A stretch of 64,000 nucleotides of DNA from a virus (IMGVR_UViG_3300029549_000273); one strand, 5' to 3'; positions 6,163 through 46,465 are shown, numbered from the stretch's first letter. The notes: generated by a model from the sequence alone, not told the origin. Program-made: numbers and translations.

Positions 6163-6405
6163 GTGTAAGCTCCTTTCGGCGGGCAAAAAATTCAAAAAAT
6201 AAGCGGCATCACAAGACAAACCCGCGAAAAACGGATAGTTTGCGACGCCGCTTTTGCTGGCTGCTGCTTGCCCGTCTCTCCGGACTGTCACCGCTGCGGG
6301 GCGGCTGCTTGCGGTTAGCCCCCGTGAGTCCCCGTTTCCCCTGCCCTGATGTGCTCTATCTGTGGGCAGACCGTTCAGACGTGTACTTTGTCCGAGCACT
6401 GGACG

Positions 6406-6482
6406 TGGAGCAACGTACCGGATTCGAACCGGCACCGCCGGTTTGGAAGACCGGAGTGCTGACCGTTAAACACCAACGCTGC
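6406..6482 (-). tRNA. tRNA-Gly(TCC), CCA encoded
   Basis: The reverse complement is GCAGCGTTGGTGTTTAACGGTCAGCACTCCGGTCTTCCAAACCGGCGGTGCCGGTTCGAATCCGGTACGTTGCTCCA. The anticodon loop is CTTCCAA. Confidence 0.75.
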
Positions 6483-6646
6483 TTGTTGCAGCTCCCGACA
6501 ATCGAGGCATCGTTTACTTGCGCGTCATGGGCGCTTTCGCAAGCCGCCGTGTATACCCACCGGCTCCGCGCCTGAATTGTCGGGCATTGTCATTCTTCGT
6601 GAGGCTTTCTGCACACGCTCACATCAGCCGAGAGCGACTCGGCAAC

Positions 6647-6723
6647 TGGTTTCGGGGGCGGGACTCGAACCCGCGTCAACCGGCTTATGAGGCCGGACTG
6701 GAACCATCTCCAGGCACCCCGAT
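6647..6723 (-). tRNA. tRNA-Met(CAT); the 1:72 pair is mismatched, so it could be the initiator type
   Basis: The reverse complement is ...CCGGCCTCATAAGCCGG...GCGGGTTCGAGTCCCGCCCCCGAAACCA. The anticodon loop is CTCATAA and the T-arm is GCGGG/CCCGC. Confidence 0.65.
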
Positions 6724-6732
6724 ATATATGGC

Positions 6733-6868
6733 AGGGACGGTTGGGAATCGAACCCACCACAAGCGGTTTAAGGTGAAGAGAGGACCGTCAACCGTTGCCG
6801 TGTGGAGTCGAACCACACGGCTTGGGGAATCGAACACCCGCCCAGGTCCTCTGGTCCGGGACCGTCCC
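6733..6868 (-). ncRNA. Atypical 136-nt tRNA-like structured element with three T-arm-like hairpins and a nested acceptor-like stem
   Basis: The outer stem pairs GGGACGG with CCGTCCC, and the inner stem pairs GAGGACC with GGTCCTC. The inner span is exactly 73 nt. T-loop-like motifs are GGTGTTCGATTCC, GTGTGGTTCGACTCCACAC and GGGTTCGATTCCCAA. The element cannot be parsed as one or two canonical tRNAs by eye. Confidence 0.3.
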
Positions 6869-6949
6869 GGATGGCATAGCCCCGCTTAGATTGTCACACA
6901 CTGATATCAGGCCGGACACATCCGAGCAGTGCAGTTTTCAGCGAGGCTA

Positions 6950-7026
6950 TGGTGATGCCAGCGAGGCTCGAACTCGCACTCTTCAGCGTGAAAGGCTGAT
7001 GACTTTACCAATTCGTCTATGGCACC
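6950..7026 (-). tRNA. tRNA-Glu(TTC), CCA encoded
   Basis: The reverse complement is GGTGCCATAGACGAATTGGTAAAGTCATCAGCCTTTCACGCTGAAGAGTGCGAGTTCGAGCCTCGCTGGCATCACCA. Confidence 0.65.
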
Positions 7027-7134
7027 GAAGGAAAGAGATATGGCTGGGCAAACGGCTTTTACTGCCCTGTCGGCACGGAATGGATACCGCCCCGGTGGGT
7101 TCTCACCACTATATTCTGTTAAGCCTATCTCTTG

Positions 7135-7210
7135 TGGCGGTCCCTGCTGGACTCGAACCAGCGACTTTCTGATTAACAGTCAGACGCTCTGCCAACTGAG
7201 CTAAGAGACC
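7135..7210 (-). tRNA. tRNA-Asn(GTT), CCA encoded
   Basis: The reverse complement is GGTCTCTTAGCTCAGTTGGCAGAGCGTCTGACTGTTAATCAGAAAGTCGCTGGTTCGAGTCCAGCAGGGACCGCCA. This is a canonical cloverleaf. Confidence 0.8.
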
Positions 7211-7217
7211 AAATAAA

Positions 7218-7289
7218 GTTGGAAGCCGGACTTGACCCGGCGACCTACGCATTACAAATGCGCTACGCTACCAACTGAGCTATGTCAGC
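7218..7289 (-). pseudogene. tRNA-Thr(TGT)-like remnant abutting tRNA-Asn; the acceptor stem cannot pair
   Basis: The 5' part GCTGACATAGCTCAGTTGG...GCGCATTTGTAATGCGT and the T-arm GCCGGGTCAAGTCCGGC resemble the Thr(CGT) gene at 8295..8370. The 3' strand TTCCAAC is not complementary to the 5' GCTGACA. Confidence 0.35.
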
Positions 7290-7401
7290 ATTTTGCTCGG
7301 CTCCCGGTCGCGGACGCCTTCCTGCCAGCCGCCCAGCACTTAGCAATGATGCCAGCCGCCAATCACTTAGCTTTTTGCGCTTCCTCGCCCGCATACCGGG
7401 A

Positions 7402-7488
7402 TGGTGCTATCGAAGGGACTTGAACCCTTACGCTGTTTCCGGCAGCAGATTTTGAGTCTGCCGTGTCTGCCAATTTCACCACGATAGC
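7402..7488 (-). tRNA. tRNA-Leu(CAA), long variable arm, CCA encoded
   Basis: The reverse complement is GCTATCGTGGTGAAATTGGCAGACACGGCAGACTCAAAATCTGCTGCCGGAAACAGCGTAAGGGTTCAAGTCCCTTCGATAGCACCA. Confidence 0.8.
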
Positions 7489-7499
7489 ATATTAAGAGA

Positions 7500-7586
7500 T
7501 GGTGGGCCGTGCTGGACTCGAACCAGCCGAGCCGTGAGGCACCAGATTTACAGTCTGGCCCGCTACCTGCTACGGAATACCGGCCC
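7500..7586 (-). tRNA. tRNA-Tyr(GTA), long variable arm, CCA encoded
   Basis: The reverse complement is GGGCCGGTATTCCGTAGCAGGTAGCGGGCCAGACTGTAAATCTGGTGCCTCACGGCTCGGCTGGTTCGAGTCCAGCACGGCCCACCA. Confidence 0.75.
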
Positions 7587-7616
7587 ATATTTGCCGCCAA
7601 AGGCGGCTTGGTGTGC

Positions 7617-8270
7617 TTACCCCCAATGCTGCTGCACAGGATTTCGGGAGCAATATTCCTTATATTGCTGCAATACTTCAACGCCACGCCCCGGTGAATC
7701 GGTTCTGTAGTCTACCGAATATGCAGCAAAGGCATCTCGTACTTTAGCGGCATATTCAGTGATAGTTCCCAGCATTTTGTCCTGCTGCTGACTCATGGCC
7801 GCCATCGTATCGCCAAACTTCATGGAATATTGGGCTTCCCATTCATCCACAAAATCTTCCTTGCTGGTGTTCCAGATATACCACGGCGGACATTCGCAAT
7901 CATCAGCCTTATAGAGCATATCCATGCCCCGCATTGAGTGGTTGATATAATCCATCAATGCGTGATACAATTCGCGGTATGCTGTGGCAAACGCCTGCCT
8001 ATTTTCATCGCCGTGTTGAAAGAGATACCCCGAAATCAAAACGCTGGCATAGCTTTGTTCAACAAAGCCGTACATATCAGCCAGAATTTGTTTGCGGCGG
8101 ACAAGTTCTTCTGTTTTCTCAGGAATATCCGACAGTTTTGGAATAGCATTAAGCACCACGCTTTTTCCGACTAATGCAGCTACCGCATCCGCCGCTCGTT
8201 CGTACCGATTGTCGTACCGATTGGTGACTTTTAATGCTTGCTTTAAGTCTGCTGAATCCAACATTGCCAT
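7617..8270 (-). CDS. Hypothetical protein (217 aa) embedded within the tRNA array
   Basis: Clean ORF with AAAGGAGA 6 nt before the ATG. It is flanked by tRNA-Tyr and tRNA-Thr. Confidence 0.55.
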   Translation of the reverse strand: MAMLDSADLKQALKVTNRYDNRYERAADAVAALVGKSVVLNAIPKLSDIPEKTEELVRRKQILADMYGFVEQSYASVLISGYLFQHGDENRQAFATAYRELYHALMDYINHSMRGMDMLYKADDCECPPWYIWNTSKEDFVDEWEAQYSMKFGDTMAAMSQQQDKMLGTITEYAAKVRDAFAAYSVDYRTDSPGRGVEVLQQYKEYCSRNPVQQHWG

Positions 8271-8294
8271 TCTCCTTTTCTAATGTTTTATTTC

Positions 8295-8370
<76 letters not shown>

Positions 8371-8389
8371 ATTTTTCTCTTTGGGAGAA

Positions 8390-8464
8390 TGGCTGAGATG
8401 GCTGGATTCGAACCAGCGAGTCAGGGAGTCAAAGTCCCATGCCTTACCACTTGGCTACACCTCA
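8390..8464 (-). tRNA. tRNA-Gln(TTG), CCA encoded
   Basis: The reverse complement is TGAGGTGTAGCCAAGTGGTAAGGCATGGGACTTTGACTCCCTGACTCGCTGGTTCGAATCCAGCCATCTCAGCCA. Confidence 0.7.
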
Positions 8465-8519
8465 ATATTTCGCGGGCAGACTTTGGGACCGTCTGCCGGG
8501 GTCGTAATCTCGACGAGTG

Positions 8520-8598
8520 CGCCAGCAACGGGATTCGAACCCGTGAACTCTACATCCTTTTGGATTAAGAAGCTGAATCCGCCCAGACTTCTGCCGGC
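8520..8598 (-). ncRNA. Non-canonical tRNA-like element (79 nt, no CCA, aberrant anticodon arm)
   Basis: The acceptor pairs GCCGGCA with TGCTGGC and the T-arm is ACGGGTTCGAATCCCGT. The only plausible anticodon hairpin is TTCTT-AATCCAA-AAGGA, which lacks U33. Confidence 0.3.
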
Positions 8599-8678
8599 AT
8601 AAATAGTTTTTAGAGGAGAAAGCAGACTACAATGCCGCCTGCCAGGGCGCTTCATGAATGGAGAAAGTTGAAAAAACG

Positions 8679-9003
8679 GCGGGTGGCCGGATTTGAACCG
8701 ACGAGTGCGCTCTCCTACCAAAGCGTCCACATATATTGCTTTAAGGGGGGGATTGGCAGACTATAACGCCGCCTGCCGGGGCAGATGTATGGGTAAAAAA
8801 GGAGAAGAAAAAAATGGCGGGCGGCCGGATTCGAACCGACGAGCGTTTGCCCCTGCCGGAGCACCCGCATATATACTGAAGGAGAAAGGCAGACTACGAC
8901 GCCGCCTGCCGGGGCAGATGTATTTGAATGAAAAGGGAGAAAGAAAAAATGGCGGGCGGTCGGATTCGAACCGACGGGCATTTGCTCCTGCCGAAGCACC
9001 CGC
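8679..9003 (-). repeat. Three tandem roughly 135-bp units, each containing an anticodon-arm-less tRNA-like element (acceptor stem, small D-like hairpin, T-arm), at the 5' end of the tRNA operon
   Basis: The units lie at approximately 8690-8745 (degenerate), 8816-8868 and 8951-9003. Each has the form GCGGGTG-CU(C/U)CGGCAGG(G/A)G-...-GTCGGTTCGAATCCG(G/A)C-CGCCCGC-CA followed by a U-run. A compensatory C-G to U-A change occurs in the small hairpin between units 2 and 3. Confidence 0.45.
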
Positions 9004-9032: not shown

Positions 9033-9061
9033 ATTATACCACATAACATCTTGATTGTCAA
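9033..9061 (-). promoter_or_regulatory. Consensus sigma-70 promoter TTGACA-N17-TGgTATAAT driving the tRNA operon
   Basis: The reverse complement reads ttaTTGACAatcaagatgttatgtggTATAATac. It lies immediately upstream of the first tRNA-like unit. Confidence 0.6.
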
Positions 9062-43187: not shown

Positions 43188-44582
43188 TTATTTTTTTGCC
43201 TCGGCTGCTGCATGGGGAAGCCGCACCCAGCCGCCCTTATGACGAACAAGCTGGATTTTCTTCATGCTGACCATAAGCGGCTTTCCATCCGTGAGTAGGC
43301 TTAATGCCCTGCCATAGCTGGAGCAGCCCTTGGAAACGTATTTGCGATTGCCGTAGACCACGATATCTCCCGGCTGCATGGCATATCTCTGCTTTCTGGT
43401 CGAGGTTCGGCCCTTTGACTTCTTACAGCCACGGAACCGGCGCAGATTTTCGCCGTCAAGGTTATGATTGCGGTTCGTCCTGCCGGAGGACAGCTCGTTG
43501 CCAGAACGGATAACTCCCTTTTCCCGTGTGTCGTAATATTTGGCGTCATAGAATTTGGATAGGACTCTGTTGTTTCGCCTGTATTTCTGGAAGACCTCTG
43601 TTTCGCATCTGGCTTCCGGACGCAGCTCGCCCATGCAGTAGGCATCCGTAGCGCAGGAATACGGGAGGCCGAGGTTGGTGCGGACGCGCTTGGAGATGAC
43701 GCCATAGGTCATGTGTACTTCCGCAACACCCTGGAAGCGAGCCATCGCACGCTGATAGAGAATCCAGCGCACGCTATTCATAAACGCTTCGCCGGTATAT
43801 TTCCGCAGAGGCTTATCGAAGCCCCACAGCTTCCCGCCCTCCTTGTGATTGGCAGGTGTGTTGCACTTCTCGCAGCAGGTCGCAAGCTCCCTCATGCTGT
43901 TCCCATGCAGACCCTTCCAGTAGTAGGCGTGATGGACATGAAGGATAGCGCCGTCTTTCAGGCCTCTCTTGCAATACACACAGGTATAGTGGTCCCGTTC
44001 AAAGACCGCTTCCCGCAGCGTATCGTAGCCGTACTGCGGTCCATGCTGATAGTCCTTGCCCTGCGGGACAGGTTCCCCTGCCTCCAGCGCCGCAAGGAGC
44101 TGTGTATCGTATGTCGCGGCCTTGATAAAGACATCCGTGACAGGCATGACAGACAGATAACGGGAGATAATATCCAGGTGCCGCTCCACCTTGTTGTCCA
44201 GAGACGGAGCAATCCAACCGGGCTTTTTGCCTGATACACGGTTATTGAACCGTGCAGCCCGATACCGCAGGCGGTTTCTGCGCGTCCGGCGGTACGCTCG
44301 GCAGTCGTCATGGCGAGAGCGCTCGTTCGTGAGCATATCATATTGCTGCGATACGACCTCTTTTGCCTTTGTCTTAATGCTGACGCCGATATGCTCATAT
44401 CCGGTGCCGACGCACATTTCGATGGGCTGGGTATAGGTACTGGTATCGTAGGTCAGCTGGATGGTGAACGGGTTCCGCTTCGCAATCACAGCGCGGCCAT
44501 CCTTCAACAGATGGCGCACTTTGCCGTAATTTTCGGTCGGCATCAGCCGTTCACCGTTTGCACTTAAAACACATACTGGCAT
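43188..44582 (-). CDS. iscB: IscB-family (OMEGA-type) RRXRR/HNH protein with apparently degenerate RuvC catalytic residues
   Basis: The N-terminus MPVCVLSANGERLMPTENYGKVRHLLKDGRAVIAKRNPFTIQLTY is a PLMP/RRXRR domain. The arginine-rich bridge helix is RAYRRTRRNRLRYRAARFNNR. The HNH motif is CVYCKRG...HVHHAYYWKG...CCEKCN. The IscB-like C-terminus is GDIVVYGNRKYVSKGCSSYGRALSLLTDGKP. Aligned against an IscB sequence recalled from memory, the RuvC-I Asp is Gly, the RuvC-II Glu is Lys, and the RuvC-III His is Cys. Confidence 0.6.
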   Translation of the reverse strand: MPVCVLSANGERLMPTENYGKVRHLLKDGRAVIAKRNPFTIQLTYDTSTYTQPIEMCVGTGYEHIGVSIKTKAKEVVSQQYDMLTNERSRHDDCRAYRRTRRNRLRYRAARFNNRVSGKKPGWIAPSLDNKVERHLDIISRYLSVMPVTDVFIKAATYDTQLLAALEAGEPVPQGKDYQHGPQYGYDTLREAVFERDHYTCVYCKRGLKDGAILHVHHAYYWKGLHGNSMRELATCCEKCNTPANHKEGGKLWGFDKPLRKYTGEAFMNSVRWILYQRAMARFQGVAEVHMTYGVISKRVRTNLGLPYSCATDAYCMGELRPEARCETEVFQKYRRNNRVLSKFYDAKYYDTREKGVIRSGNELSSGRTNRNHNLDGENLRRFRGCKKSKGRTSTRKQRYAMQPGDIVVYGNRKYVSKGCSSYGRALSLLTDGKPLMVSMKKIQLVRHKGGWVRLPHAAAEAKK

Positions 44583-44616
44583 CTTATTTTTTCCTTTCAC
44601 GCTGCGGGTGCAGTTT

Positions 44617-44775
44617 CCTGTCATTCGGTGGGGGACGTCAACTGCGTGATGCTCCGTTTGCGGGGGGGGCTGCGGTATAGCTACCTGTCATTTGGTGGGG
44701 GACGTCAACCTGTCAATCCGGATTGCAATTTAATCGTACGGTATAGCTCCCTGTCATTTGGTGGGGGACGTCAAC
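44617..44775 (-). repeat. CRISPR-like mini-array of three 26-bp direct repeats with 41- and 40-nt unique spacers, abutting and overlapping the iscB start
   Basis: The repeat CCTGTCAT(T/C)TGGTGGGGGACGTCAAC is at 44617-44642, 44684-44709 and 44750-44775. The spacers share only a terminal cggtatagct. No cas1/cas2 is present. Confidence 0.45.
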
Positions 44776-44804: not shown

Positions 44805-45105
44805 ACGACAAACCAAAAAGGTAAATCAGCACTTACCGCTCACGCGGCGTTACTGTGGTCCACATCGCCAAGGATATACCGGGTTTGATGGTACGCACAC
44901 TTCTCCTTCCCCTCAGAGATGTTTAATACGCACCCGCAGAGCGGCGGACTTGTGGAGTATCCGCCGGTGCCTATGTATTCCGGCATATCGTAGCCTTGCG
45001 GCTGAGGCTTATTGACGAGGCTTACTCTCCTTGCGGGTCATAAGCCACACCAAATGACAGGAGGCTGAGCCGGAGTTTCCGGCGCACCCGCCCGCCATTC
45101 GGCGG
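44805..45105 (-). ncRNA. Structured roughly 300-nt RNA element (copy A) with GNRA-capped hairpins, an anti-repeat complementary to the mini-array repeat, and a 3' intrinsic terminator; candidate omega-RNA/tracr-like RNA
   Basis: On the minus strand it contains CCCGCCgaatGGCGGG, GCCGGaaacuCCGGC, AGCCgcaaGGCU, and the segment CCUGUCAUUUGGUG, which is complementary to the repeat CACCAAAUGACAGG. It ends with the hairpin GGUAAgugcugauUUACC followed by UUUUUGGUUUG. An identical copy is at 46160-46465. Confidence 0.4.
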
Positions 45106-46159: not shown

Positions 46160-46465
46160 CTACTTGAGAAAACCAAAGATTTGGTAAATCAGCACTTACC
46201 GCTCACGCGGCGTTACTGTGGTCCACATCGCCAAGGATATACCGGGTTTGATGGTACGCACACTTCTCCTTCCCCTCAGAGATGTTTAATACGCACCCGC
46301 AGAGCAGCGGACTTGTGGAGCATCCACCGGTGCCTATGGATTCCGGCATATCGTAGCCTTGCGGCTGAGGCTTATTGACGAGGCTTACTCCCCTTGCGGG
46401 TCATAAGCCACACCAAATGACAGGAGGCTGGGTCGGAGTTTCCGGCGCACCCGCCCGCCATTCGG
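46160..46465 (-). ncRNA. Second copy (copy B) of the roughly 300-nt structured RNA element, more than 95% identical to copy A
   Basis: Near-identical to 44805-45105 with a handful of substitutions. It is the same terminator-capped structured element. Confidence 0.4.

What the first reader, a model, noticed from the sequence alone, without database searches (positions are those of the whole stretch)
6733..6868. A 136-nt nested tRNA-like structure with three T-arm-like hairpins inside the tRNA array
Between tRNA-Met and tRNA-Glu the minus strand carries an outer 7-bp acceptor-like pairing (GGGACGG with CCGTCCC). It encloses an inner 7-bp pairing (GAGGACC with GGTCCUC). The inner span is exactly 73 nt.

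The region also holds three T-loop-like hairpins, including a perfect 8-bp CCGUGUGG-UUCGACU-CCACACGG.

It does not parse by eye as one or two canonical tRNAs.

Possible explanations are a tRNA interrupted by an inserted tRNA-like element, a Y-RNA-like tRNA mimic, or two overlapping degenerate tRNAs.
Basis: seen in the sequence. Interest (0 to 1): 0.5.

Follow-up and report, generated by a model that had tools for sequence, protein, structure and literature searches.

The report
Unannotated tRNA-mimic RNA plus tRNA-Trp stub
The "136-nt nested tRNA-like structure" is two adjacent things: a 95-nt member of a widespread, apparently undescribed phage RNA family with two tRNA-type T arms, and the leftover 3' half of a tRNA-Trp gene cut down by a deletion.

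Summary
The sequence features are real: three GTTCGAnTCC T-loop motifs, a 7-bp outer pairing and a 7-bp inner pairing. They do not form one nested RNA.

**Conserved RNA, window 6872-6778 (minus strand).** It matches full-length (40 bits, E about 3e-9) a covariance model built only from other viral contigs.
- Across 86 members, 22 of 23 pairs show compensatory changes.
- Members lie in phage tRNA arrays, always on the tRNA strand, often within 0-10 nt of neighbouring tRNAs.
- They occur in gut Clostridia phages and in cultured Caulobacter phages.
- Rfam 15 has no model for the family.

**tRNA remnant, window 6769-6729.** This holds the third T arm, CCGUCCC and GCCA. It is the 3' remnant of a tRNA-Trp(CCA) gene. 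Relatives such as Oscillospiraceae CM18GR_63 keep that gene intact, 152 nt longer.

**Outer "acceptor" pairing.** It joins H0 to the orphaned tRNA-Trp acceptor strand. Its predicted probability is about 0.001, and no other member has it.

The family's function is unknown. A processed tRNA-elbow mimic is my inference. A Ro60/Y-RNA link was tested and not supported.

The parts
6778..6872 (-). Member of a conserved double-T-arm RNA family (model R1), about 95 nt: H0, P1, T1, T2 and mini-D
   Evidence: Model R1 was built from 11 other viral contigs, without the window. It matches positions 1-94 at 40.1 bits, E 3e-9. Fold z-score is -3.2. Family covariation is shown.
6855..6871 (-). H0 hairpin UCCGGGA-CGG-UCCCGGA.
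   Evidence: All six model pairs show compensatory changes across 86 members, and the loop GG is 88-90% conserved. Pair probability in the window is about 0.99. The C->U change in L002 keeps the pair as G.U.
6845..6851 (-).
   Evidence: Covaries with 6780-6786. Relatives have GAGGGCC/GGCCCUC, GAGAGCC/GGCUCUC, GAGAGUC/GACUCUC and CUUACAG/CUGUAAG. All six P1 pairs have double changes.
6780..6786 (-). P1 3' strand GGUCCUC
   Evidence: Same evidence as the P1 5' strand. The span 6851..6780 is 72 nt.
6824..6839 (-). T1: 4-bp stem (with a bulged U here) and T-loop UUCGAUU.
   Evidence: The T-loop is 100% conserved across the 86 members. Pair (57,70) is GC in 55 members and AU in 27.
6797..6821 (-). 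T2: 9-bp hairpin GCCGUGUGG-UUCGACU-CCACACGGC.
   Evidence: The stem covaries: GGCGAGG/CCUCGC, UGUGAGG/CCUCACA and CGCGUGG/CCACGUG in close relatives. RNAalifold adds the base pairs (75,101), GC in 40 and AU in 36, and (76,100).
6789..6797 (-). Mini-D: short hairpin CAA-CGG-UUG with a GG loop
   Evidence: Aligned by the model to the family's GC-AAGGU-GC hairpin. The loop GG is 99% and 93% conserved, and both pairs covary.
6729..6769 (-). 3' remnant of tRNA-Trp(CCA).
   Evidence: It aligns base for base, with one mismatch, to the 3' part of a 78-nt tRNA-Trp(cca) that default ARAGORN calls in L166. The Rfam tRNA-Sec model scores 35.9 bits there. The window has no tRNA-Trp call.
6767..6771 (-). 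Deletion junction (UU|AAA). The window lacks 152 nt relative to L166-type relatives, at an AAAA microhomology.
   Evidence: Pairwise alignment. The same junction occurs in 18 fetched loci from 13 contigs. The undeleted form occurs in 19 loci.
6647..6723 (-). tRNA-Met(CAT), 5 nt downstream of the remnant's CCA
   Evidence: ARAGORN and Rfam, 43.9 bits.
6950..7026 (-). tRNA-Glu(TTC), 77 nt upstream of the conserved RNA
   Evidence: ARAGORN and Rfam.
9033..9061 (-). Consensus sigma-70-type promoter match (TTGACA-17-TATAAT with TG) upstream of the whole tRNA array
   Evidence: 12 of 12 match in the consensus scan, with a terminator-like hairpin just upstream. This is a pattern match only.

Best explanation
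The flagged span holds two unrelated neighbours in a phage tRNA operon on the minus strand.

**(1) Window 6872-6778: a conserved RNA gene**
- It belongs to a family not represented in Rfam 15.
- The architecture is a 5' hairpin with a GG loop (H0), then a cloverleaf-like unit closed by stem P1.
- That unit holds, in order, a T arm (T1), a long hairpin capped by a second T-loop (T2), and a tiny hairpin with a GG loop (mini-D).

**(2) Window 6769-6729: a dead tRNA stub**
- It is the 3' stub of a tRNA-Trp(CCA) gene.
- A 152-nt deletion removed the spacer and the tRNA's 5' acceptor strand, D arm, anticodon-stem 5' strand and most of the anticodon loop.
- This deletion brought the third T arm next to the conserved RNA.

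**The outer 7-bp 'acceptor' pairing**
- It is a complementarity between H0 (GGGACGG) and the orphaned tRNA-Trp acceptor strand.
- It is not a conserved helix.

**Shown**
- Family membership, family covariation, strand and context of the family, and the deletion.

**Inferred**
- The family RNA is released from the polycistronic tRNA transcript by the tRNA-processing enzymes that trim its neighbours (RNase P at the downstream tRNA, 3'-end processing of the upstream one).
- It then acts in trans as a stable tRNA mimic.
- Its two T-loops and two invariant GG loops could form D-loop/T-loop 'elbows', with T1+T2 stacking like a T/acceptor arm and mini-D+P1 like a D/anticodon arm.
- It might compete for, or scaffold, a factor that reads tRNA elbows. 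The partner is unknown.
For: **Membership**
- R1 was built without the window and hits 6872-6778 full-length at 40.1 bits. Window tRNAs score at most 14.8 bits.

**Family reality**
- The alignment holds 86 members, forming 47 clusters at 80% identity.
- 88.8% of cells are paired.
- 22 of 23 pairs show double changes.
- There are 524 compensatory cells against 160 in shuffles; 0 of 500 shuffles reach the observed value.
- The slide control gives 0.634 at register against at most 0.168 off register.
- RNAalifold recovers the same helices independently.
- GG is invariant or nearly so in both loops, and both T-loops are 99-100% conserved.

**Context**
- Every ARAGORN tRNA within 1.5 kb of the 86 members is on the element's strand; none is opposite.
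- Neighbouring tRNAs are often 0-10 nt away on both sides.

**Breadth**
- 39 IMG/VR contigs, 14-518 kb.
- 9 genomes, all Clostridia.
- Caulobacter phage RW scores 74.5 bits, in an unannotated stretch next to tRNA-Val.

**No Rfam family**
-.

**Deletion**
- The alignment to L166 is roughly 97% identical by eye, apart from two window gaps.
- Default ARAGORN calls tRNA-Trp(cca) in L166, covering the window's T3 segment.
- Both forms recur in many independent assemblies.

**Outer stem disfavoured**
- Enforcing it gives -66.6 kcal/mol against an MFE of -71.9 kcal/mol, with pair probability about 0.001.
- Close relatives L262 and L283 lack any T3 or CCGUCCC segment after P1.
Against: - No expression or end-mapping data exist, so processing and stability are inferred from context only.
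- The window subtype is a divergent member (40 bits against 60-104 for most members). Its J1 and 3' junction differ from the consensus.
- The 7-bp outer complement is perfect, sits exactly beside a T arm, and is followed by U-G-CCA. It has only a 1.6% chance in shuffles.
- Folding the isolated 140 nt does choose the outer stem, so a lineage-specific alternative fold is not excluded.
- A2 was aligned to the model's structure, which inflates pair counts. This is mitigated by the MAFFT-only alignment A1 and by RNAalifold.
- The elbow model and the trans-acting mimic role are untested.
Confidence: 0.85

Rival explanations
1. One reading: one nested RNA of 136-140 nt. An outer acceptor stem (GGGACGG/CCGUCCC) plus the third T arm and a 3' CCA would frame an inserted tRNA-like module, in the manner of tmRNA or T4 species 1 RNA.
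For: - The complement is a perfect 7 bp, lies directly 3' of a T arm, and is followed by U-G-CCA.
- The MFE of the isolated 140 nt uses this stem.
- An exact complement occurs in only 1.6% of shuffles.
- In L166 the pairing would survive as a U.G wobble.
- T4 rnaC is a 139-nt stable RNA lying flush in a tRNA cluster.
Against: - The 3' strand belongs to a tRNA-Trp that has its own 5' strand in relatives, 152 nt of sequence away.
- The 5' strand lies in the covarying H0 hairpin.
- Pair probability is about 0.001, with a ddG of about 5 kcal/mol against it once 15 nt of context are added.
- None of the other members examined has a T3/acceptor segment.
- L272 has GGGACGG together with an intact tRNA-Trp.
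- ARAGORN finds no tmRNA here, and there is no G3.U70.
Confidence: 0.06
2. The 95-nt RNA is a bacterial or phage Y RNA of the YrlA type. It would bind a Ro60/Rsr protein through H0 and present a permuted tRNA-like module to an effector such as PNPase.
For: - The helix order is that of YrlA: closing stem, variable linker, T arm, closed 'acceptor' hairpin, D-like hairpin (PMC4201824; bioRxiv 10.1101/312249).
- In a subset of members H0 reads GGCGAACGG, which fits the published GNCGAAN0-1G Ro-binding motif (PMC4201824).
- One member (L191) lies 650 nt upstream of a bona fide Ro60 gene on the same strand. That gene scores TROVE 2.7e-34 and matches PDB 9KOP at 2e-35.
Against: - None of 12 related viral Ro60 loci carries the family within 4 kb. 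Those Ro60 genes simply sit downstream of tRNAs.
- Only 1 TROVE protein was found among 48 non-redundant 400-640-aa ORFs from 176 family loci.
- No TROVE domain in the 20 window ORFs scanned against Pfam. Ten further window ORFs scanned against PHROGs gave no Ro60-like match.
- No TROVE domain in the 10 largest unnamed ORFs of the complete Caulobacter phage RW genome.
- The window's H0 is GGGACGG, not GNCGAA.
- The conserved UA linker of YrlA is absent, the D stem is only 2-3 bp, and an AA linker separates T1 from T2.
Confidence: 0.08
3. Non-functional debris: scrambled tRNA pseudogene fragments produced by recombination between T-loop sequences in the array.
For: - The 3' part really is a tRNA fragment.
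- L272 is a chimera with its crossover inside the T2 loop.
- L002 carries a G->U change in the remnant's T-loop.
Against: - This applies only to 6769-6729.
- The 5' 95 nt keeps its helices through hundreds of compensatory changes across 47 sequence clusters.
- It occurs in phages of both Clostridia and Caulobacter, with conserved junction nucleotides.
Confidence: 0.03
4. A cis-acting element rather than a free RNA. It could be a leader or riboswitch for the downstream gene, or an attP site made of tRNA-like fragments for a nearby integrase.
For: - Some members lie 17-45 nt upstream of an RBS and start codon.
- Serine or tyrosine recombinases lie within a few kb in several loci and in the window.
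Against: - The downstream ORFs are unrelated small proteins.
- Many members are flanked by tRNAs on both sides within 0-10 nt.
- Compensatory base changes indicate selection on RNA pairing, not on a DNA recombination site.
- No terminator or RBS-sequestering alternative was seen.
Confidence: 0.04

Closest known systems
YrlA-type bacterial Y RNAs (tRNA-like module; PMC4201824, bioRxiv 10.1101/312249, PDB 6CU1)
   Same: - The element order matches a permuted cloverleaf: closing stem, short linker, T arm with a canonical T-loop, closed hairpin in the acceptor position, GG-loop hairpin in the D position.
- Neither has a free CCA end.
- YrlA-type RNAs also occur in phages.
- The stacked lengths (T1+T2 about 13 bp; mini-D+P1 about 9 bp) are tRNA-like.
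   Different: - There is no consistent Ro60 neighbour.
- The 'acceptor' hairpin is itself capped by a second T-loop.
- The D stem has 2-3 bp rather than 4.
- An AA linker separates T1 from T2, and the conserved UA linker is missing.
- There is an extra 5' GG-loop hairpin instead of a long Ro-binding 5'/3' stem.
- The family sits inside tRNA arrays, flush with the tRNAs.
Bacteriophage T4 species 1 and 2 RNAs (rnaC, rnaD)
   Same: These are small stable RNAs of 139 and 119 nt. They are encoded on the tRNA strand, 1-6 nt from neighbouring genes in the phage tRNA cluster. rnaC contains a canonical T arm. To my knowledge their function is still unknown.
   Different: There is no sequence or structure match. 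R1 gives 18 bits on rnaC, carried mainly by the T arm, against at least 33 bits for family members. They have one T-loop, not two.
Canonical tRNA and tRNA gene fragments
   Same: - T1 and T2 carry the tRNA T-loop consensus GTTCGAnTC.
- 6769-6729 is a genuine tRNA-Trp 3' half ending in CCA.
   Different: - The 95-nt RNA has no 5'/3' acceptor helix, no anticodon arm and no conserved NCCA.
- ARAGORN and Rfam do not call it.
- The remnant lacks its 5' half.
tmRNA tRNA-like domain
   Different: - ARAGORN finds no tmRNA.
- There is no tag reading frame, no pseudoknots and no G3.U70.
- The framing helix is not conserved.

Membership tests
Double-T-arm RNA family defined here (model R1, alignments A1/A2) | Full-length match to a covariance model built without the query, clearly above the scores of true tRNAs | tested here: met
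   Window 6872-6778 scores 40.1 bits, E 3e-9, over model positions 1-94. The best tRNA in the window scores 14.8 bits.
Double-T-arm RNA family defined here (model R1, alignments A1/A2) | All five helices (H0, P1, T1, T2, mini-D) can form, with GG in both small loops and GTTCGAnTC in both T-loops | tested here: met
   The cmsearch alignment and the MFE fold of 6872-6778 show all five helices. Close relatives covary in H0, P1 and T2.
Double-T-arm RNA family defined here (model R1, alignments A1/A2) | Located in or beside a tRNA array, on the same strand as the tRNAs | tested here: met
   The window element lies between tRNA-Glu and tRNA-Met on the minus strand. Across the 86 members, no tRNA within 1.5 kb is on the opposite strand.
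Canonical tRNA | Cloverleaf recognised by tRNA detectors | tested here: not met
   Default ARAGORN gives no call. Rfam tRNA has no match at gathering threshold or at E<=10; tRNA-Sec reaches only 15.6 bits.
Canonical tRNA | 5' and 3' ends pair into a 7-bp acceptor stem followed by discriminator and CCA | tested here: not met
   The only candidate, GGGACGG/CCGUCCC, is followed by UGCCA, one nucleotide too many. It competes with H0 (probability about 0.001). Its 3' strand belongs to a truncated tRNA-Trp.
tRNA-Trp(CCA) (for 6769-6729 only) | Complete gene with acceptor 5' strand, D arm and CCA anticodon | tested here: not met
   Only the 3' 41 nt remain. The full 78-nt gene is called in L166, L198, L205 and L272. 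The sequence is homologous but it is a pseudogene fragment.
YrlA / bacterial Y RNA | Encoded next to a Ro60 (Rsr, TROVE-domain) gene | tested here: not met
   - No TROVE domain in the 20 window ORFs scanned against Pfam; 10 further window ORFs scanned against PHROGs gave no Ro60-like match.
- No TROVE domain in phage RW's large ORFs.
- 1 TROVE protein among 48 ORFs from 176 family loci.
- 0 of 12 related Ro60 loci carry the RNA.
- The flanks searched were at most about 7 kb, and the window covers only part of the genome.
YrlA / bacterial Y RNA | Ro-binding motif GNCGAAN0-1G near the 5' end, in a 5'/3' stem | tested here: inconclusive
   A subset of members has GGCGAACGG in H0. The window has GGGACGG. 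The motif lies in a hairpin, not in a terminal stem.
YrlA / bacterial Y RNA | Permuted tRNA-like module: closing stem, V, T arm, closed acceptor hairpin, D arm | tested here: met
   The topology of P1, J1, T1, T2 and mini-D matches. The linkers and the D-stem length differ. The 3D fold was not tested.
tmRNA | tRNA-like domain with G3.U70, a tag reading frame and pseudoknots | tested here: not met
   ARAGORN finds no tmRNA at default settings. Position 3-70 would be G-C. At 136 nt the span is too short for a tag frame with pseudoknots.
T4 species 1/2 RNA | Sequence or structure similarity to rnaC or rnaD | tested here: not met
   R1 gives 18 bits on rnaC with filters off, driven by the T arm. 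Only the genomic context is shared.

The most novel reading that the evidence does not exclude
The 95-nt RNA represents an undescribed, widespread class of phage-encoded tRNA mimic. It would present two D-loop/T-loop 'elbows', or dimerise through them. After being cut out of tRNA operons it would act in trans. Possible roles are a decoy for host factors or anti-phage nucleases that read the tRNA elbow, or a recruiter of tRNA-processing or tRNA-modifying enzymes. Cultured Caulobacter phage RW carries a copy next to its annotated tRNA-Val, so this can be tested directly.
Probability: 0.25. Interest if true: 0.8.

Novelty: new variant of a known kind. Interest (0 to 1): 0.55.

Why it matters
- Phage tRNA arrays are usually annotated as tRNAs plus 'spacers'. 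At least one recurrent spacer-sized slot holds a conserved, covarying RNA gene that standard tools (ARAGORN, Rfam 15) miss.
- The family is found from gut Clostridia phages to a cultured Caulobacter phage, which gives an experimental handle.
- It adds a new architecture to the short list of tRNA mimics (tmRNA, YrlA, viral TLS, mascRNA).
- It recalls the long-unexplained T4 species 1 and 2 RNAs.
- For annotation, T-arm-rich stretches in arrays can be mosaics of real RNA genes and deletion-truncated tRNAs. Attractive long-range 'acceptor' pairings between them can be accidental.

Tried and rejected
1. **Standard or intron-containing tRNA.** ARAGORN with introns and relaxed thresholds gave only implausible calls at -ps70/80.
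2. **Known Rfam family.** There was no match at gathering threshold, or at E<=10 with permissive filters, on the window, L078 or L166.
3. **Near-identical relatives for covariation.** L001-L012 are 98-99.6% identical across the array and gave no information.
4. **Annotated phage genomes.**
   - The tRNA array (6300-8600) had no megablast match.
   - The element itself gave only T-loop matches with blastn.
   - The L078 homologue found the Caulobacter phages.
5. **Ro60/Y RNA link.**
   - Pursued through Pfam scans, a 48-ORF batch scan, PDB matching and 12 related Ro60 loci.
   - Rejected as a general association.
   - A DUF2828/DUF7788 protein lies near one lineage. It has no detectable PDB Ro60 similarity.
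6. **cis-regulator of a downstream gene.** The downstream ORFs are heterogeneous.
7. **Alternative pairing of J1 (UGCA) with the 3' UGCA instead of mini-D.** Not supported: J1 varies (UGAAGC) without compensation, whereas the mini-D pairs covary.
8. **Literature.** Searches for a prior description found only the general catalogue of 10,006 viral candidate RNAs (PMC10690425), whose supplements are not held. Prior listing there cannot be excluded.

Full report
**Observation**

  - GGGACGG is at 6868-6862 and CCGTCCC at 6740-6734.
  - GAGGACC is at 6851-6845 and GGTCCTC at 6786-6780.
  - There is a perfect 8-bp hairpin, 9 bp with the flanking G-C pair, around TTCGACT.
  - There are three GTTCGAnTCC motifs.
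- The inner span is 72 nt, not 73.
- The region lies in a minus-strand tRNA array.
  - The ARAGORN calls are Gly, Met, Glu, Asn, Leu, Tyr, Thr and Gln.
  - Rfam alone adds one more tRNA, at 7217-7289; relaxed ARAGORN reads it as Thr(tgt).
  - A consensus promoter match lies upstream at 9061-9033.
- No tool calls a tRNA in 6733-6868.
  - Default, intron-aware and mildly relaxed ARAGORN give nothing.
  - Rfam gives nothing at gathering threshold. With permissive filters the best match is tRNA-Sec at 15.6 bits, E 2.4.

**Finding relatives**

- Five IMG/VR contigs share the region at 98-99.6% identity, so they gave no covariation signal.
- A pattern for two T-loops closer together than separate tRNAs allow (GTTCGANTCC N5-30 GGTTCGANTCC) hit more than 120 viral contigs.
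- Reading those hits showed several recurrent non-tRNA elements built from T arms.
- One of them shares the window's core...GGGCGGGGUUCGAnUCCCCAAGCC[hairpin with UUCGACU]GGC....

**The family**

- I aligned eleven members from other viral contigs with MAFFT (A1). I wrote a structure for them with these elements:
  - H0, a 6-bp hairpin with a CGG/UGG loop.
  - P1, the closing stem.
  - T1, a 4-bp stem with a T-loop.
  - T2, a 5-9-bp stem with a T-loop.
  - mini-D, a 2-3-bp stem with an AAGGU-type loop.
- Even on this unfitted alignment, 17 of 23 pairs show changes on both sides. No shuffle out of 500 reaches the observed scores, and the slide control peaks at register 0.
- Model R1 was built from A1 and does not contain the window.
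  - It matches window 6872-6778 over its full length at 40.1 bits, E about 3e-9.
  - The window's real tRNAs score at most 14.8 bits.
- One degenerate pattern scan of each collection showed how widely the family occurs.
  - 9 hits in genomes, all gut Clostridia.
  - More than 116 metagenome contigs, mostly human gut and rumen.
  - 39 IMG/VR contigs of 14-518 kb.
- R1 aligned 86 distinct members (A2), forming 47 clusters at 80% identity.
  - 88.8% of cells are paired.
  - 22 of 23 pairs have compensatory changes.
  - There are 524 compensatory cells against about 160 in shuffles.
  - The covariation score is 0.634, against at most 0.168 for slid registers.
- RNAalifold recovers the same helices on its own. 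It also extends T2 by a pair that is G-C in 40 sequences and A-U in 36.
- Conservation of unpaired positions:
  - Both T-loops are 99-100% conserved.
  - GG is 88-99% conserved in both small loops.
  - Several junction nucleotides are over 90% conserved.
- No member matches any Rfam 15 family.

**Context of the family**

- Every ARAGORN tRNA within 1.5 kb of the 86 members is on the element's strand. Neighbouring tRNAs are frequently 0-10 nt away on both sides.
- Where an ORF follows instead, the ORFs are unrelated.
- The family is also present, unannotated, in four cultured Caulobacter phages. In phage RW it scores 74.5 bits and lies between tRNA-Val and an 828-aa ORF.

**The third T arm**

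- The closest relatives of the window subtype are L166 (Oscillospiraceae bacterium CM18GR_63), L198, L205, L272, L283, L262 and L249.
  - They covary with the window in H0, P1 and T2.
  - None has a T arm directly after P1.
- Aligning the window array to L166 shows roughly 97% identity by eye, apart from two window gaps.
  - One gap is a 152-nt block missing between ...CUUCACCUU and AAACCGC...
- In L166, default ARAGORN calls a 78-nt tRNA-Trp(cca).
  - Its 3' part is the window's AAACCGCuUGUGGUGGGUUCGAUUCCCAACCGUCCCUGCCA.
  - Its acceptor 5' strand is AGGGGCG.
  - Rfam's tRNA-Sec model gives 35.9 bits there.
- The window therefore retains only the 3' 41 nt of that gene, and no tRNA-Trp is called in it.
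- The deletion junction, at an AAAA microhomology, recurs in 18 fetched loci from 13 contigs. The intact form occurs in 19 loci, so this is not an assembly artefact.

**The outer pairing**

- GGGACGG is the 5' arm plus loop of H0. CCGUCCC overlaps the orphaned acceptor strand of tRNA-Trp.
- With 15 nt of upstream context the MFE forms H0, not the outer stem.
- Enforcing the outer stem costs about 5 kcal/mol. Its pairs have probability about 0.001, against about 0.99 for H0.
- The isolated 140-nt fold does pick the outer stem. An exact complement arises in only 1.6% of shuffles.
- I therefore keep a small probability for a lineage-specific alternative fold. Nothing conserved supports it.

**What the family might be**

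- The order P1, linker, T arm, closed hairpin, GG-loop hairpin, P1' is the order of the tRNA-like module of YrlA Y RNAs (PMC4201824; bioRxiv 10.1101/312249). Some H0 hairpins also contain a GNCGAA-like motif.
- I tested the defining Ro60 association, and it does not hold in general.
  - No TROVE domain in the 20 window ORFs scanned against Pfam.
  - Ten further window ORFs scanned against PHROGs gave no Ro60-like match.
  - No TROVE domain in 10 ORFs beside other members.
  - No TROVE domain in the large unnamed ORFs of the complete RW genome.
  - A batch scan of 48 non-redundant 400-640-aa ORFs from 176 family loci found one TROVE protein. It is L191:1659-3023, a clear Ro60 homologue.
  - None of 12 related viral Ro60 loci carries the RNA. 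Those Ro60 genes simply lie downstream of tRNAs.
- The family works like a YrlA-type mimic in topology, but it is not shown to be a Y RNA.
- T4 rnaC and rnaD are a contextual analogue but not homologues; R1 gives 18 bits on rnaC.
- The processing and elbow-mimic mechanism in my best explanation is inference from tRNA structural knowledge and from the flush tRNA context. It is not a result.

**Verdict**

- The nested-structure interpretation is not supported.

Noticed in passing
window 44853-45016 (-) and 46216-46435 (-); ORF 43188-44624 (-): Two HEARO RNAs (93.7 and 91.8 bits) lie beside an RRXRR (IscB-type) ORF. This looks like an IscB/omega-RNA element inside the phage-like genome.
   Followed up: no
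window 7217-7289 (-): An extra tRNA (Thr, tgt) is detected by Rfam at 41.2 bits and by relaxed ARAGORN, but not by default ARAGORN.
   Followed up: partly
window 7027-7134 (-): The 108-nt spacer between tRNA-Asn and tRNA-Glu folds into a closed three-hairpin structure. Its z-score is -4.1, and 0 of 200 shuffles fold as well. It may be another unannotated RNA in the array.
   Followed up: no
window about 8620-9000: Imperfect direct repeats of roughly 135 nt (about 76% identity) lie just upstream of the tRNA array, near the promoter match.
   Followed up: no
window 6647-6723 (-): tRNA-Met(CAT) has an A1/A72 mismatch at the top of the acceptor stem, shown in the Rfam alignment. This is reminiscent of the unpaired 1-72 position of bacterial initiator tRNAs.
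   Followed up: no
L006 8425-8447 and L007 783-805: The exact T2 hairpin sequence CCGTGTGGTTCGACTCCACACGG occurs alone between two ORFs in unrelated viral contigs. It is a stand-alone T-arm-like hairpin.
   Followed up: no
L029, L033, L085, L093, L098, L099, L102, L124, L130; L048, L106, L128, L084; L115: Viral tRNA arrays hold other recurrent non-tRNA elements built from two or three T arms and closed by an acceptor-like stem. Examples are an 88-nt 'GAGAGAGCACCUUGG...GGCAAUGGUGGUUCGAUUCCACCUUCUCUC' type and a 140-nt three-T-arm type. R1 scores them only 18-26 bits.
   Followed up: partly
L134, L163, L170, L185, L238, L250, L277 (20-40 nt downstream of the family element): A conserved block, GGAUGGGUUUUAGGAnGnCCUGAACGAAGCCCCnCAAGC, follows the element in one sub-lineage. 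It has no Rfam match and may be a second linked RNA.
   Followed up: no
L191 1659-3023 (-); L314-L325: A clade of phage Ro60 homologues (TROVE plus vWA_Ro60) is closest to Thermus phage phiLo Ro60, PDB 9KOP. These genes typically lie just downstream of one to three tRNA genes. Their own Y RNAs were not sought.
   Followed up: partly
L209 517-1995 (+), L246, L289, L292, L093 10441-11985 (+): DUF2828+DUF7788 proteins are encoded near tRNA arrays that carry multi-T-arm RNAs. They have no PDB sequence match.
   Followed up: partly
L272 4486-4580 (-): This element is a chimera: window-type 5' half and L166-type 3' half, with the crossover inside the identical T2 loop. One mismatch is left in the T2 stem.
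   Followed up: no
L209, L246, L274 (0-1 nt upstream of the family element): ARAGORN calls a CTA-anticodon tRNA ('tRNA-Pyl', an amber-suppressor type) directly abutting the family element.
   Followed up: no
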